A stretch of 64,000 bases of DNA from a virus (Duplodnaviria; Heunggongvirae; Uroviricota; Caudoviricetes), in the IMG/VR virus record IMGVR_UViG_3300015214_000028, positions 1 to 64,000 of that record; one strand, given 5' to 3'. Positions 43,194 through 47,496 of this stretch are shown here, one piece after another (the first letter of the stretch is position 1; each line of letters opens with the position of its first letter). Made by a program: the position numbers and the translations under genes. Under the pieces are notes generated by a model. That model worked only from the letters and a program-made list of their open reading frames with translations. It made no database searches and was not told the origin of the DNA.

Positions 43194-44050
43194 AGGAACT
43201 TCTAGATAAAAAAGGAATTCCGTATTCCTACCAAGGCAAGGATATTGTAGTTAGGTGTCTAAATCCAGAGCACCCGGACCGAAATCCTTCACTAAGAATC
43301 GATAAAGTAACGGGTCTAGGCCATTGTTTTTCTTGCGGGTTTAAATTAAATCTCTTCAGGTATTTTGCAGAGCCAGCTAATTCTGTAAAAGCTAAAGTTG
43401 CTTTAGTAAAAGAGAAGATTACTACAATTTACAGCGATGTATACGGGCTAGAGGTTCCCAAAGGTGCTCAGCCCTATCCACGAGAGTTCAGAGATATTCC
43501 AGTAGAGGTTCTTAGAAAGTTTGGGGCGTTTAAGCACAAAGATTACCAAGATCGTATTGTATTCCCCCTTCGAGATATTCAGGGCAAAATTCGCGCATTC
43601 GTGGCTCGAACCGAGCCACATTCGCGCGACTTGCCTAGGTATAAAATCTCTCCACCCGGGGCTAGCCTACCCTTATTTCCTGAAAAGCTAAACGAGAAAA
43701 ACTCTACTTTGTTCTTAGTAGAGGGGCCTTTTGATATGCTTAATTTATATGCTAAAGGCATTCATAATGTAGCAGCTATGCTAGGAACGCAAGGGTTAGG
43801 CTCCCTTAAACAGGGGTTAAGAAAAGATAAAGTTCATTTATTAAAACTTCAAGGTGTTAGTCGTCTAGTATTACTTATGGACGGCGACGAGGCGGGTCGT
43901 AAAGCTGCCGAAATATTGGAACCAATGTTGAAAGCTGCCGACTTTGAAGTAATAAGCGTTGACTTAGCTGAGGGAGACGACCCCGGAAGTCTAGATCAAG
44001 ACACAGTTAACCAATTAATTAAATTCTATGACGAAAATTGCAGTAATTGA
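43187..44050 (+). CDS. DnaG-like primase (zinc-binding domain + TOPRIM)
   Basis: CLNPEHPDRNPSLRID...CFSCG zinc ribbon; LVEGPFDMLNLY ... LMDGDEAGRKAA (TOPRIM). Confidence 0.7.
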   Translation: MVEELLDKKGIPYSYQGKDIVVRCLNPEHPDRNPSLRIDKVTGLGHCFSCGFKLNLFRYFAEPANSVKAKVALVKEKITTIYSDVYGLEVPKGAQPYPREFRDIPVEVLRKFGAFKHKDYQDRIVFPLRDIQGKIRAFVARTEPHSRDLPRYKISPPGASLPLFPEKLNEKNSTLFLVEGPFDMLNLYAKGIHNVAAMLGTQGLGSLKQGLRKDKVHLLKLQGVSRLVLLMDGDEAGRKAAEILEPMLKAADFEVISVDLAEGDDPGSLDQDTVNQLIKFYDENCSN

Positions 44051-45560
44051 TAAGTGCCCAAATAACGTAGACTATTCAAAGTACTTTAACTTTGAATTTG
44101 AATATTATCCACTTTCTAGTAAAAAACTAACAAAGGTATTGAAGAAAGATGTTGATATTAATATTGATATTGCTGCCTATGATTATGTTATCCTAGTTGG
44201 CTCCGAAGCAGTAAAGTATTACACTACTCACACCAATGTAACAGACCATCAAGGCACTCTAGTTGATGATAAGTTTATCCCTATGATTACACCTGGGATG
44301 CTGCACTTTAAACCTGAGGCTCGTCCAGCATTCGAACGCTCTCTAGAGTTACTGCATAAAATTGTAGCGGGAGAGCGCATGGAGGTTGTAGGGGACTTTA
44401 AATGGACGGAAGATTATGATACAGCTAGGTCCCTTCTTCTACAGCTTTTGGAAGATGTTAAGGAAACAGGACTGCTAGCGATCGACACTGAAACTACAGC
44501 GCTGTATCCTCGCGATGGGTATGTTCTAGGCGTTTCTCTAGCGGCCAAAGTAGAGAAGGGTATCTATGTACATGCTGATACTCTTGATGATGAAAACTTA
44601 GCTATTATTCAGCAAGCTATTGATATTAGCACAGAAATTTATCATAATGCTAAGTTCGATAGAAAGATGATTAAATACCATCTTGGGCTTAATCTAAAGG
44701 ATAAGTATGAAGATACCATTCTTTTGCATTATCTTCTAGACGAGACTCAAGGAACACATGGCCTTAAGCAACTAGCACTAAAATACACTAAACTAGGTGA
44801 CTATGATAGGGGACTAGACGAATTCAAAAAGTCATACTGTCGCCAGCACAAAATTAAGGAAGAGGATTTCAATTATGGAATGATTCCATTTGAAATCCTG
44901 GGGGAGTATGCTGCTAAAGATGCTGCCGCCACTCTGGAGATTTACCACCTGTTTAGGCCTAAAGTTTCCCAGAATGCAAGGCTAGAAAAGGTATATCAAG
45001 AACTAATTCTACCTGCGTCCTCTGCCCTAGAAAAAGTAGAAGACTTTGGTATTCCCGTATCTAAGGACAGATTAGAGTTTGCTAATAAAACTCTAACTGA
45101 GGCTATTCAGGAGGCTTCCGATGTATTTTACAACTCGGAGGAAGTTAAGCGCTTTGAGGAAATTCAGGAGAAACCTTTCAATCCTAATTCTGTACAACAA
45201 CTTAGGGAATTTCTTTTTACTTATCTAGGATTAAATCCTTTAAATAAAAAGACTAGTACTGGTGCTCAATCAACCGATGCAGAAGTTCTAGAAGATCTAG
45301 AAGACCAACACGAACTAGTTCGTCAAATTATTAAAATTCGTAAACTAGGTAAACTAAAAAATACCTATGTAGATAAGTTACTTTACGAGATTGATAGGGA
45401 CGGCAGAATTCGTACGGGCTTTAATCTTATTAGTACTACTTCAGGTAGGCTATCTAGCTCTGGTAAGTTCAATGCTCAACAAATTCCTAGGGATGACCCA
45501 CGCATTAAAGGTTCAATCGTTGCACCCCCGGGTTACAAAATTGTATCTCAGGATTGGTAA
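44028..45560 (+). CDS. DNA polymerase I (family A), N-terminal fragment: 3'-5' exonuclease domain through the first Asp of motif A
   Basis: Exo motifs ([11 protein letters not shown]); [54 protein letters not shown] aligns to E. coli Pol I ...IRQAFIAPEDYVIVSADY then stops. Confidence 0.8.
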   Translation: [510 protein letters not shown]

Positions 45561-46740: not shown

Positions 46741-46784
46741 GCCTCTGTTCTATCAGGAGACAAGAAACTTCAAGAAGTTTTTAA
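45750..46784 (+). CDS. Cys-rich putative homing endonuclease (344 aa; two CxxC...CxxC zinc ribbons) inside the polA insertion
   Basis: CCQCG...CRICRG and CITCDNN...CEHCNP; C-terminal DFYLPELDLVLEVT (possible nuclease core). Same frame as the polA N-fragment; its 3' end overlaps the start of the C-fragment. Confidence 0.45.
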   Translation: MQNSKLEMGGSLFTLAEMARKWFVENNVEVPKTSKEWASRSVNRGEIPPGTAVMTLRNSYGITPRVFLNILNGKDPEVNKYKQNQITPDNSQELIGLEIIDTEYRNDNVHKISRTKCCQCGFEETLDNGTFGRMLASKNKYCRICRGASGKEKPLFIFDRFEDFIPIKQTANKKILYRCITCDNNILRGTGYSLQAEYLVCEHCNPKIISGAKLETPEGVFDSKIEYLAYLKLVEILPDTFSIERQKSYDSLFGTKTKHTADFYLPELDLVLEVTTNSNNLGAKYSKTMLWKLGISSKVKLALSVKEVEDIVRPLLKNRGITVNHSRSLCSLCSIRRQETSRSF

Positions 46785-47496
46785 GAGCGGAGGCGACCTT
46801 CACTCTACAATTGCAAAGATGGTTTTCAACCTTCCTTGCGAGGCAGATCAAGTAAAAAAGCTGTTTCCAATCCAGAGGCAAGCAGCGAAAGCGATTACAT
46901 TCGGAATCCTATACGGTTCAGGGCCGTCTAAAGTAGCAGAGAGTGTAAACAAAGAAGGGGGTAGCATGACTGTCTCCGAAGCGGAAGAAGTTATTCAGCA
47001 ATACTTTGATACATTCAAGCAACTAAAGAAATGGATTACTAGTACAAAAGCTGTTATTGAGCGCGATGGATTTATTTACACAAGCCTAGGAAGAAAAAGA
47101 CGGTTGGAAAATGTATTTTCCTCAGACCGCGGCATTGCCAGCCACGAAGTCCGTTCCGGACTAAATGCTGCGGTCCAGGCTACCGCTAGTGATATCAATT
47201 TGTTAGCGCTTATTAATGCTCAAAAAGAACTAGAAAAACGCAAGCTAGACGCTAATATCTTTATGCTGGTGCATGACTCCATTGTAGCACTAGTAAAAGA
47301 TGAGTGCGTTGAGGAGTACAAGCAAATTCTAAAAACTTGTACTCAACAGGACTACGGATTTAGTATTAGCGGATACCCTATTGGGGTAGATCAGGATGTA
47401 GGGCAGGACTACTCTTTCGGTTCTTTTGACGAGAAATTTGGAGAAGAATATGCTAGATTTATCGAAACTAAAGTGGCCGATTTATCCGCTGCCTGA
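46741..47496 (+). CDS. DNA polymerase I (family A), C-terminal fragment (motifs B and C)
   Basis: [32 protein letters not shown] aligns to [45 protein letters not shown] (motif B) and LVHDS (motif C). The first ATG is at 46819, but homology starts right after the TAG at 46738. Confidence 0.75.
   Translation, partial: [251 protein letters not shown]

What the first reader, a model, noticed from the sequence alone, without database searches (positions are those of the whole stretch)
44028..47496. Family-A DNA polymerase interrupted exactly at motif A by a 1.18-kb insert; simple excision does not restore the expected SQIELRI residues
The N-fragment ends ...GYKIVSQDW* (equivalent to E. coli IVSADY). 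Homology resumes at 46741 with [10 protein letters not shown]... (equivalent to AHLSRDKGL) in another reading frame. The seven motif-A residues SQIELRI are not encoded contiguously with either fragment. The insert carries a 344-aa Cys-rich endonuclease-like ORF. This could be a self-splicing intron with non-obvious boundaries, a two-intron (twintron) arrangement, or a genuinely split polymerase expressed as two polypeptides. A phage needs a functional replicase, so one of these must hold, and the exact arrangement is unresolved.
Basis: partly seen in the sequence, partly recalled or inferred. Interest (0 to 1): 0.8.

Follow-up and report, generated by a model that had tools for sequence, protein, structure and literature searches.

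The report
Group I intron in phage polymerase
The T5-like phage DNA polymerase gene is interrupted at its catalytic motif A by one ordinary self-splicing group I intron that carries a homing-endonuclease gene, and removing exactly 1162 bases restores the polymerase, so the reported puzzle is resolved.

Summary
The interruption is real, but the claim that excision cannot restore motif A is wrong. T5-family polymerases instead have DLTTAEVY. Those residues sit directly upstream of 46741, in the frame of the C-terminal fragment.

The insert is a single group I intron, 45555-46716 (1162 nt).
- The 5' splice site follows U45554, which forms a U.G pair in P1. The intron ends in G46716.
- Splicing gives a 768-aa protein reading ...[21 protein letters not shown].
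- This aligns without a gap to T5 polymerase ([20 protein letters not shown]), to Taq (D610|Y611) and to 79 intron-less metagenomic relatives.
- The same intron occupies the same site in eight related phage contigs. Two copies lack the ORF and score 94 and 104 bits against Rfam RF00028.
- Across nine introns, 49 of 78 core pairs show compensatory changes.

The 344-aa ORF lies in the P8 loop. It starts in P7.2, reads through the 3' ribozyme core, and stops in exon 2. Its C-terminal domain is predicted to have a PD-(D/E)XK/Vsr-like nuclease fold; the nearest homing enzyme is I-Bth0305I. It matches no Pfam, PHROG, NCBIfam or PDB sequence family, and no GenBank phage.

Verdict: a new member of a known kind, of modest interest. 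The twintron and split-polymerase readings are rejected.

The parts
44028..45554 (+). DNA polymerase exon 1 (509 codons; 3'-5' exonuclease domain and the polymerase domain up to the motif-A catalytic Asp, last codon GAT).
   Evidence: ORF and Pfam hits. Alignment to T5 D7-8-9. The last residue D aligns with Taq D610.
45555..46716 (+). Group I intron, 1162 nt, IA-like with P7.1/P7.2. It begins UGGUAA (in-frame stop at 45558-45560) and ends ...AACCG, with G46716 as the terminal G.
   Evidence: Rfam RF00028 half-hits: 45549-45779 (39.2 bits, E 1e-7) and 46553-46707 (35.2 bits, E 1.7e-6). Orthologous ORF-less introns score 94 and 104 bits. Boundaries were set by exon alignment in 9 loci.
45551..45567 (+). 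P1 hairpin. GGAU(U) 45551-45555 pairs with (A)GUCC 45563-45567. U45554.G45564 is the splice-site wobble pair. The loop may supply P10 (GGUAA 45556-45560 against exon 2 UUAAC, one mismatch; weak).
   Evidence: Rfam alignment. Coordinates. There is a G-C to C-G compensatory change in L006.
45569..45784 (+). 5' ribozyme core: P2 45569-45588; P3 5' strand 45595-45600; P4 45605-45610/45689-45694; P5-P5c 45615-45685; P6/P6a 45695-45722; P7 5' strand GACUA 45728-45732; P7.1 45733-45742; P7.2 45746-45767; P3 3' strand 45773-45778; P8 5' strand 45779-45784.
   Evidence: RNAalifold consensus of 9 introns. Pair counts and controls. Window coordinates.
45738..45752 (+). Translation start of the intron ORF. 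The Shine-Dalgarno-like GGAG lies in the 3' strand of P7.1, and the AUG at 45750-45752 lies in the 5' strand of P7.2. Both are therefore paired in the folded ribozyme.
   Evidence: Sequence. P7.1 and P7.2 are supported by 3 and 6 covarying pairs. The regulatory consequence is inferred.
45750..46784 (+). Intron ORF, 344 aa, a putative homing endonuclease. It has an N-terminal helical domain, two CxxC...CxxC zinc ribbons (about residues 117-145 and 179-204) and a C-terminal PD-(D/E)XK-like nuclease domain (about residues 215-320). Invariant residues include E226, H259, D262, E273 and K292. The last 22 codons and the stop lie in exon 2, in another frame.
46669..46716 (+). 3' ribozyme core: P8 3' strand 46669-46674; J8/7 GAAGAUA; P7 3' strand UAGUC 46681-46685; P9.0 46686-46688/46714-46716; P9 46689-46708; terminal G46716. 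The same bases encode ORF residues ...KEVEDIVRPLLKNRGIT (dual use).
   Evidence: Rfam alignment. These bases are invariant also in the two ORF-less introns. Coordinates. The protein alignment shows EVEDIVR nearly invariant.
46717..47496 (+). DNA polymerase exon 2 (259 codons plus stop). It starts [15 protein letters not shown] (rest of motif A) and continues through motifs B and C.
   Evidence: Translation of the spliced sequence. T5 alignment. Pfam DNA_pol_A profile positions 163-379. There is no start codon before 46819.

Best explanation
The polymerase gene of this T5-like phage carries one mobile group I intron at 45555-46716. It sits between the codon for the motif-A catalytic aspartate (GAT, equivalent to E. 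coli D705 / Taq D610) and the next codon.

How it most likely works:
1. The gene is transcribed as one pre-mRNA.
2. A ribosome translating exon 1 stops at the UAA two codons into the intron.
3. The intron folds into a canonical ribozyme: P1-P9, the P3/P7 pseudoknot, and the P7.1/P7.2 helices typical of subgroup IA.
4. The ribozyme excises itself and joins ...CAGGAU to UUAACC...
5. The spliced mRNA encodes a continuous 768-aa polymerase with the T5-type motif A, DLTTAEVY.

The 344-aa ORF is looped out of P8. It most likely encodes a site-specific DNA endonuclease with a PD-(D/E)XK/Vsr-like catalytic domain, two zinc ribbons and an N-terminal helical DNA-binding domain. This enzyme would cut intron-less polymerase alleles in co-infecting relatives, so that repair copies the intron in (homing).

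The ORF's ribosome-binding site and AUG lie inside P7.1 and P7.2. Its 3' end runs through P8', J8/7, P7' and P9 and across the 3' splice site. Translation of the ORF and folding of the ribozyme should therefore exclude each other on any one RNA molecule, and the full-length ORF can only be translated from unspliced RNA.

Shown here: the boundaries, the restored reading frame, the conserved and covarying ribozyme structure, the fixed insertion site, the existence of ORF-less and intron-less alleles, and the predicted nuclease fold.

Inferred: catalytic self-splicing, endonuclease activity and target, and the interplay between translation and splicing.
For: 1. Rfam group I hits cover the two ends of the insert (E 1e-7 and 1.7e-6). 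The alignment shows P1 with a U.G pair at U45554 and the R/S elements GUUCAGAGACUA and AAGAUAUAGUC.

2. Joining 45554 to 46717 gives an open 768-codon frame. The product is 45% identical to T5 polymerase over its full length with no gap at the junction: query [18 protein letters not shown] against T5 [18 protein letters not shown]. It also aligns without a gap to Taq LDYSQIELRVLAHLSGD.

3. Of the 80 best IMG/VR relatives (65-70% identity), 79 are uninterrupted and read ..SQDL.TAE.Y...

4. The same intron sits at the same codon boundary in L002, L003, L004, L006, L007 and L008 with the ORF, and in L009 (277 nt) and L011 (335 nt) without it.
- In every case exon 1 ends in GAU and the intron ends in G.
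- Every intron has an in-frame stop within three codons of the 5' splice site.
- The ORF-less copies score 94 and 104 bits against RF00028, whose gathering score is 50.

5. RNAalifold on the nine cores recovers P1-P9, P7.1, P7.2 and P9.0. With P7 added as a pseudoknot:
- 98.1% of cells are paired, against 80.6% in shuffles.
- 49 of 78 pairs have compensatory changes, exceeded by 0 of 500 shuffles.
- Controls with the 3' partner slid by 1-3 columns give 34-45% paired.

6. There is no start codon between 46714 and 46819.

7. ORF evidence:
- 61 homologues, and all five looked up lie at this same polymerase site.
- AlphaFold2 model with pLDDT 85.6.
- E226, D262, E273 and K292 are invariant, on an alpha-beta-beta-beta-alpha-beta scaffold.

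8. Between the window and L002, the intron is 97-99% identical while exon 1 is 89.6% and distal exon 2 is 84%. This is what recent lateral spread of the intron would produce.
Against: - In the window itself, neither Rfam half-hit reaches the gathering score of 50 (39.2 and 35.2 bits). A gathering-threshold scan of the whole window reports no intron.
- P10 is weak in this copy (4 of 5 pairs).
- No RNA data are available, so splicing is not observed.
- The canonical ExK lysine is replaced: the motif reads E273-V-T275.
- There is no sequence-level match to any nuclease family.
- Some of the strongest protein conservation (EVEDIVR, EMGG) is imposed by the RNA, not by protein function.
- The higher identity of the intron between the window and L002 could partly reflect RNA and protein constraint rather than recent transfer.
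Confidence: 0.93

Rival explanations
1. Genuinely split polymerase. The N fragment (510 aa) and a C fragment are made as two polypeptides that assemble, and the insert is a free-standing endonuclease gene between them.
For: Two separate ORFs are called. Gene callers on related contigs also list two polymerase pieces.
Against: - The C-fragment frame has no ATG, GTG or TTG until 46819. An independent product would therefore lack [15 protein letters not shown]...AK, which includes the second motif-A carboxylate (E, equal to Taq E615).
- Yet these 34 codons are conserved in frame in all relatives.
- The insert has a complete, covarying ribozyme core.
- ORF-less 277-335 nt versions exist at the same site. 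They make no sense as intergenic spacers of a split gene.
Confidence: 0.02
2. Twintron or two adjacent introns, so that more than one splicing event is needed.
For: Rfam reports two separate group I hits inside the insert. Relatives do carry additional introns elsewhere in the gene: L002 has a second one, and L006 has two more.
Against: - The two hits are complementary parts of one model. The first covers model positions 5-158. In the second, the only well-aligned part covers positions 204-253.
- The P3, P7 and P8 strands pair across the ORF.
- ORF-less orthologues are single contiguous introns.
- A single excision already restores the frame and the motif.
Confidence: 0.02
3. The intron splices, but its ORF is no longer (or never was) a homing endonuclease. 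It could be a decaying relic, a maturase-like splicing cofactor, or a DNA-binding protein.
For: - There is no sequence match to any nuclease family.
- The ExK lysine is absent.
- hhalign against I-Bth0305I gives probability 0.2%.
- ORF-less derivatives exist, as expected in the homing-endonuclease gain, decay and loss cycle.
Against: - The ORF is full length, with every family-invariant residue present, including E226, D262, E273 and K292.
- All sampled homologues sit at the same polymerase site.
- The ORF differs at 16 nt and 6 aa from its L002 copy, while the flanking exon 1 differs at about 10% of positions.
Confidence: 0.2
4. Dead intron or pseudogene: the polymerase gene is inactivated in this genome.
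For: None beyond the sub-threshold Rfam scores.
Against: - Both exons are intact and conserved.
- All core elements are intact and identical to those of the high-scoring orthologues.
- The arrangement recurs in at least eight independent contigs of about 100 kb phages.
Confidence: 0.02

Closest known systems
Group I (IA2) introns in family-A DNA polymerase genes of phages SPO1/SP82/Bastille (I-HmuI, I-HmuII, I-BasI), Pf-WMP3 (I-PfoP3I), phiL7, and PhiI/W31 (I-TslI)
   Same: A self-splicing group I intron with P7.1/P7.2 sits in a highly conserved stretch of a phage PolA gene. An in-frame stop follows the 5' splice site closely, and an endonuclease ORF is looped out of the ribozyme (PMC3428280).
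   Different: - Published insertion sites are E. coli positions 674, 676 and 881 (PMC3428280). This one lies between D705 and Y706, in motif A.
- The published endonucleases are HNH nicking enzymes. This ORF has no HNH motif and a PD-(D/E)XK-like fold.
- The host here is a T5-like phage.
I-Bth0305I, prototype of the EDxHD (Vsr-like) homing endonucleases, in the recA group I intron of Bacillus phage 0305phi8-36
   Same: - It is phage intron-encoded, with an N-terminal DNA-binding region and a C-terminal Vsr-like nuclease domain.
- By eye, both share the strand motifs ..DFYL.. and ..L.(I/L)EV...
   Different: - No detectable sequence homology: hhalign probability 0.2% and BLASTP E 1.6.
- I-Bth0305I hits Pfam DUF559, whereas none of the 39 family members does.
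- The His and second Asp of the EDxHD motif have no conserved counterparts.
- This protein has two zinc ribbons instead of NUMOD/HTH repeats.
- Its ORF lies in P8, not P5 (PMC3239194).
I-Ssp6803I, a PD-(D/E)XK homing endonuclease in a cyanobacterial tRNA-fMet group I intron
   Same: A PD-(D/E)XK-superfamily nuclease encoded in a bacterial-type group I intron (from established knowledge; listed as a homing-endonuclease family in PMC6083498).
Phage T4 td intron / I-TevI
   Same: A group IA intron in an essential phage gene. Endonuclease translation signals are sequestered in RNA structure, so translation and splicing compete (established knowledge; reviewed in PMC3073962, which was listed but not read here).
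   Different: I-TevI is a GIY-YIG enzyme whose ORF lies in P6a and is contained wholly within the intron. Here the ORF runs from P7.2 through the whole 3' core and ends in exon 2.
Bacteriophage T5 DNA polymerase (D7-8-9) and its replication module
   Same: The spliced product is 45% identical over its full length and has the same DLTTAEVY motif A. The gene order is also the same: dnaB, primase, pol, small ORF, D10 helicase.
   Different: T5 has no intron at this site. No match at or above about 85% nucleotide identity was found in 50,697 GenBank phage records.

Membership tests
Group I intron (Rfam RF00028) | Covariance-model match at or above the gathering score (50 bits) | tested here: inconclusive
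   The window gives two half-hits of 39.2 and 35.2 bits (E 1e-7 and 1.7e-6), because the 880-nt P8 insert splits the model. The gathering-threshold scan reports nothing. Orthologous ORF-less introns at the same site score 94 and 104 bits.
Group I intron (Rfam RF00028) | Conserved core P3-P9 with the P3/P7 pseudoknot and the R/S elements, supported by covariation | tested here: met
   RNAalifold and pair counts on 9 introns give 98.1% of cells paired and 49 of 78 pairs with compensatory changes, exceeded by 0 of 500 shuffles. Slid controls give 34-45% paired. P4 and P7 never vary, so they add no covariation evidence.
Group I intron (Rfam RF00028) | 5' splice site after a U that forms a U.G pair in P1; intron ends in G | tested here: met
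   U45554.G45564 and G46716. The same holds in all 9 loci: every exon 1 ends in GAU and every intron ends in G.
Group I intron (Rfam RF00028) | Excision restores a continuous, homologous coding sequence | tested here: met
Group I intron (Rfam RF00028) | Guanosine-dependent self-splicing | not testable with these tools
   This needs an in-vitro transcription and splicing assay, or RT-PCR.
Subgroup IA group I introns | Extra helices P7.1 and P7.2 between the P7 5' strand and the P3 3' strand | tested here: met
   P7.1 (45733-45742) has 3 of 3 pairs with compensatory change. P7.2 (45746-45767) has 6 of 6. Finer assignment (IA1, IA2 or IA3) was not tested.
PD-(D/E)XK nuclease superfamily | alpha-beta-beta-beta-alpha-beta core fold | tested here: met
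PD-(D/E)XK nuclease superfamily | Catalytic signature D ... (D/E)-x-K on strands 2 and 3 | tested here: inconclusive
   D262 (strand 2) and E273 (strand 3) are invariant. The x-K position is V274-T275, not Lys. An invariant K292 on the following helix might substitute. No coordinates were available to check the geometry.
EDxHD (Vsr-like) homing endonucleases, prototype I-Bth0305I | Composite motif E170, D196, x(N208), H213, D222 (PMC3239194) | tested here: not met
   Counterparts exist for E (E226) and the first D (D262). No conserved His follows strand 3, and there is no clear second Asp. D310 is invariant, but it is encoded by the invariant J8/7 RNA.
EDxHD (Vsr-like) homing endonucleases, prototype I-Bth0305I | Sequence homology to the Vsr/DUF559 catalytic domain | tested here: not met
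   0 of 39 members hit DUF559 or Vsr at E<=1. hhalign gives probability 0.2% and BLASTP gives E 1.6. I-Bth0305I itself hits DUF559 at 6e-7.
Homing endonuclease (functional class) | ORF embedded in a self-splicing element, at a fixed site in a conserved host gene, with intron-less alleles in relatives | tested here: met
   All five looked-up homologues sit in the same polymerase site. Intron-less alleles are common. The intron is less diverged than the exons.
Homing endonuclease (functional class) | Site-specific cleavage of the intron-less allele | not testable with these tools
   This needs purified protein and a target DNA.
Intein | In-frame insertion with Hint-domain splicing blocks | tested here: not met
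   A stop codon lies two codons into the insert (45558-45560), the insert causes a frame shift (1162 nt), and it has no Hint Pfam hit.
T5-like (Demerecviridae-type) family-A DNA polymerase | Full-length homology to T5 D7-8-9 and the T5 replication-module gene order | tested here: met
   45% identity over 814 aligned columns, and the same gene order. Taxonomic placement of the phage itself was not tested.

The most novel reading that the evidence does not exclude
The 344-aa intron ORF may found a seventh or eighth lineage of homing endonucleases that has not been described. It would be a Vsr/PD-(D/E)XK-fold enzyme with a non-canonical active site (E226, D262, E273, K292; no ExK lysine and no EDxHD His) and two zinc ribbons. 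It is confined so far to motif A of T5-like polymerases in metagenomes.

Its gene is unusually interwoven with its ribozyme. The RBS and AUG lie in P7.1/P7.2. The last nuclease helix is encoded by J8/7-P7-P9, the guanosine-binding core. The stop codon lies in the downstream exon, so the full-length protein can be made only from unspliced pre-mRNA.
Probability: 0.5. Interest if true: 0.5.

Novelty: new member of a known kind. Interest (0 to 1): 0.33.

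Why it matters
For annotation:
- The polymerase of this phage and of its many metagenomic relatives is one intact 768-aa gene, not two fragments.
- Standard pipelines miss the intron. Rfam at its gathering threshold reports nothing, and gene callers list two polymerase pieces plus a 'hypothetical protein'.
- Comparing against the wrong reference (E. coli rather than T5) made a routine intron look paradoxical.

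For biology:
- It adds a further intron insertion site in family-A polymerases, exactly at the catalytic aspartate. The 2012 paper consulted here lists three others (PMC3428280).
- It flags a small, uncharacterised endonuclease family: 156 clusters at 50% identity in 1.84 billion proteins, and none in GenBank phages.
- That family could supply a new long-target DNA-cutting scaffold.
- It is also a compact case of one sequence serving as both ribozyme core and protein code.

Tried and rejected
- Megablast of 36-56 kb against GenBank phages gave no match, so the source phage is not identified.
- Pfam, PHROGs and NCBIfam on the ORF gave only noise-level zinc-finger hits. Pfam on all 39 members gave no nuclease family.
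- An HMM of the family against PDB sequences returned only ZZ-type zinc fingers at E>0.01.
- tblastn of the ORF against 50,697 phage genomes gave no match.
- hhalign and BLASTP against I-Bth0305I were not significant.
- Pfam on ten remote relatives from the 1.84-billion-protein search showed no nuclease domain either, only zinc-finger/treble-clef hits and HNH_repeat.
- The annotation 'DNA polymerase 1 | DNA polymerase 2' in Klebsiella phage vB_Kpn_3 was checked as a possible cultured example. It is mere ORF fragmentation with no insert.
- Literature searches for introns in T5-like or Demerecviridae polymerases found no description of this intron.
- The MAFFT core alignment puts L009's P1 one column out of register. 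The two 'unpaired' P1 cells are an alignment artefact.
- I did not build my own covariance model, because it would have been trained on the window's own lineage.

Full report
**1. The observation**

The region contains three ORFs on the + strand:
- a 510-aa ORF at 44028-45560, ending ...GYKIVSQDW*;
- a 344-aa Cys-rich ORF at 45750-46784;
- a 225-aa ORF at 46819-47496.

Pfam DNA_pol_A covers profile positions 20-159 in the first piece. It covers positions 163-379 in the translation of 46726-47493. So a family-A polymerase is indeed cut at motif A.

In the frame of the C-terminal piece, the eight codons upstream of 46741 read LTTAEVYV (46717-46740), preceded by a stop at 46711-46713.

**2. Boundaries**

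Rfam's group I model matches both ends of the insert:
- 45549-45779: 39.2 bits, E 1e-7, model positions 5-158.
- 46553-46707: 35.2 bits, E 1.7e-6. The well-aligned part is UGAAGAUAUAGUCC plus the P9 hairpin.

The alignment places the splice-site U of P1 at U45554, with GGAU pairing to GUCC. The only G that ends the intron and keeps the polymerase frame is G46716. Excising 45555-46716 (1162 nt) leaves a 2307-nt open frame that reads ...[30 protein letters not shown]....

**3. Does that restore the enzyme?**

Three comparisons say yes.
- The 768-aa product is 45% identical to T5 polymerase D7-8-9 over its whole length, with no gap at the junction. T5 reads [20 protein letters not shown].
- Against Taq polymerase the alignment is also ungapped: [20 protein letters not shown] against LVALDYSQIELRVLAHLSGD. 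The junction therefore lies between Taq D610 and Y611. By the established numbering of the Pol I carboxylate residues, that corresponds to E. coli D705|Y706.
- A scan of IMG/VR returned 80 relatives (65-70% identity) in which this stretch is uninterrupted. Of these, 79 read ..SQD-L[TRAQ][TA][AG]E[MV][YF]...

The T5 family simply has a different motif A.

**4. The same element elsewhere**

The intron ORF has 61 homologues, all unannotated. The five contigs looked up are 15-154 kb and have T5-like gene order. All carry the ORF right after a 508-510-aa polymerase N fragment.

A search of IMG/VR with the ORF family found one more ORF-containing copy (L008). It also found three loci that match only the last ~40 residues. 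Those three are two distinct ORF-less introns of 277 nt (L009, identical to L010) and 335 nt (L011), at the same codon boundary. They score 94 and 104 bits against RF00028, whose gathering score is 50.

In all nine distinct introns:
- exon 1 ends in GAU;
- the intron ends in G (AACCG or AAAUG);
- an in-frame stop lies within three codons of the 5' splice site.

**5. Structure**

I aligned the nine cores with the P8 loop trimmed (A2). RNAalifold recovers P1, P2, P3, P4, P5-P5c, P6/P6a, P7.1, P7.2, P8, P9 and P9.0. I then added P7 as a pseudoknot and counted pairs:
- 98.1% of cells form standard pairs, against 80.6% in shuffles.
- 49 of 78 pairs show changes on both sides, exceeded by 0 of 500 shuffles.
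- Sliding the 3' partners by 1-3 columns drops pairing to 34-45%.

Caveat: the structure was derived from these same sequences, and they are related, so these numbers lean towards the structure. P4 and P7 never vary and so add no covariation evidence.

P7.1 and P7.2 mark the intron as subgroup IA-like. The ORF-less intron also shows blastn similarity to intron-like regions of other phages such as phiKZ-like phages, AR9/PBS1 and a Flavobacterium phage.

**6. Where the ORF sits**

P8 is CAGCCU (45779-45784) paired with AGGUUG (46669-46674). The ORF body fills the P8 loop. In the ORF-less L009 the loop is only AAAC.

The ORF extends beyond the loop at both ends.
- Its GGAG ribosome-binding site is the 3' strand of P7.1.
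- Its AUG (45750) is in P7.2.
- Codons 5-10 (K-L-E-M-G-G) are the P7.2 3' strand (AAGCUC), the joining GAAAU and P3' (GGGGGG).
- Residues ~307-322 (KEVEDIVRPLLKNRGI) are P8', J8/7, P7', P9 and P9.0.
- The last 22 codons and the stop (46782-46784) lie in exon 2, in a different frame.

The bases encoding EVEDIVR are invariant even in the two introns that have no ORF. That protein conservation is therefore dictated by the RNA. Even so, AlphaFold places these residues in a confident terminal helix, 305-318.

Two consequences are inferred, not shown:
- A folded ribozyme hides the ORF's start signals, and a ribosome translating the ORF unfolds the catalytic core.
- The excised intron carries the ORF without a stop codon. 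The full-length protein must therefore come from precursor RNA.

**7. What the ORF is**

No Pfam, PHROG or NCBIfam family matches it, nor does any PDB sequence. tblastn finds no relative in 50,697 GenBank phage genomes. An exhaustive profile search of 1.84 billion representatives finds only 156 clusters at E<=1e-3. Ten remote ones carry no nuclease Pfam domain.

The AlphaFold2 model built from 39 sequences is confident (pLDDT 85.6). It shows:
- an N-terminal helical domain;
- two zinc ribbons, with invariant C117, C120, C142, C145, C182, C201 and C204;
- a C-terminal alpha-beta-beta-beta-alpha-beta domain.

Invariant residues E226 (helix 1), D262 (strand 2) and E273 (strand 3) fit the superfamily's metal site. 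The usual lysine is T275, and an invariant K292 lies on the next helix.

I fetched I-Bth0305I itself from phage 0305phi8-36.
- By eye it shares DFYL and L.(I/L)EV with this family.
- hhalign gives probability 0.2% and BLASTP gives nothing.
- It hits Pfam DUF559, whereas no member of this family does.
- The His and second Asp of its EDxHD motif (PMC3239194) have no counterpart here.

I therefore file the protein as a PD-(D/E)XK-fold putative homing endonuclease of an undescribed sequence family, not as an EDxHD member.

**8. Signs of mobility**

- Intron-less, ORF-less and ORF-containing alleles of one site coexist.
- Between the window and its closest relative L002, exon 1 is 89.6% identical, the intron 97-99%, the first 188 nt of exon 2 96%, and the rest of exon 2 84%.
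- The drop in identity coincides with the point where L002 carries a second, LAGLIDADG-type intron that the window lacks.

This pattern is what homing with co-conversion of flanking exon sequence would leave. It is suggestive, not proof.

**9. Rivals**

- Split polymerase: contradicted by the lack of any start codon for the conserved motif-A codons and by the ORF-less introns.
- Twintron: contradicted by the single coherent core.
- Intein: excluded by the stop and the frame shift.
- Dead intron: unlikely given intact exons and core, and recurrence in many large contigs.
- The ORF is not an active endonuclease: this is the only rival with real weight (about 0.2).

**10. Comparison with known systems and verdict**

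Group I introns with endonuclease genes in phage family-A polymerases are well known. Examples are SPO1, SP82, Bastille and Pf-WMP3 at E. coli position 674, phiL7 at 676, and PhiI and W31 at 881, all with HNH enzymes (PMC3428280).

This one differs in three respects:
- its site (705/706, at the catalytic Asp);
- its host lineage (T5-like);
- its endonuclease family.

The mechanism is the ordinary one, and the apparent paradox is resolved. It is a new member of a known kind. Interest is modest (0.33). It would rise to about 0.5 if the ORF proves to be an active endonuclease of a new family with the unusual interleaving of coding sequence and ribozyme.

Noticed in passing
window 48529-48957 (within the helicase ORF 47953-49668): The D10-like SF2 helicase carries a 143-aa mini-intein inside its DExH box (VVDE|CLDYEV...SILVAN|CHHS). 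It has Pfam PT-HINT and Intein_splicing hits. Removing it leaves 428 aa, similar to the intein-less homologues in L003 (431 aa) and L007 (437 aa). L006 has a larger intein with a LAGLIDADG domain at this gene.
   Followed up: partly
L002 7310-8404, corresponding to window 46904/46910: The closest relative (about 94% identical upstream) has a second, 1095-bp insertion in the polymerase at motif B (..AITFGI|LYG..). It has a weak group I hit and a LAGLIDADG-like ORF. The window lacks it. Nucleotide identity between the two phages drops from about 96% to about 84% exactly at this point.
   Followed up: partly
L006 5068-5370 and 5405-5682: Another relative has two further ORF-less group I introns (103 and 88 bits) in tandem, 34 nt apart, in polymerase exon 2. 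That makes three introns in one polymerase gene.
   Followed up: no
window 25163-33168: A cluster of 14 tRNA genes on the + strand, a T5-like genome feature.
   Followed up: no
window 47426-47956: A 176-aa ORF overlaps the 3' end of the polymerase gene by 71 nt and has no Pfam match. It occupies the position of the small hypothetical gene T5p121, between pol and D10 in T5.
   Followed up: no
window 45555-46716: An Rfam scan at gathering threshold reports no intron in the window, because the ORF in P8 splits the model. Routine annotation would therefore miss it and call a fragmented polymerase.
   Followed up: yes
intron-less relatives L012-L091, junction codon: Most intron-less alleles use GAC for the motif-A Asp, whereas all nine intron-containing alleles use GAT. 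GAT supplies the U needed for the P1 U.G pair. This could be a co-converted marker or a barrier to intron gain.
   Followed up: partly
L004 6207-8504: In this relative the helicase gene next to the polymerase is itself split by a LAGLIDADG-like ORF. This suggests that the whole replication module is a hotspot for selfish elements in this phage group.
   Followed up: no
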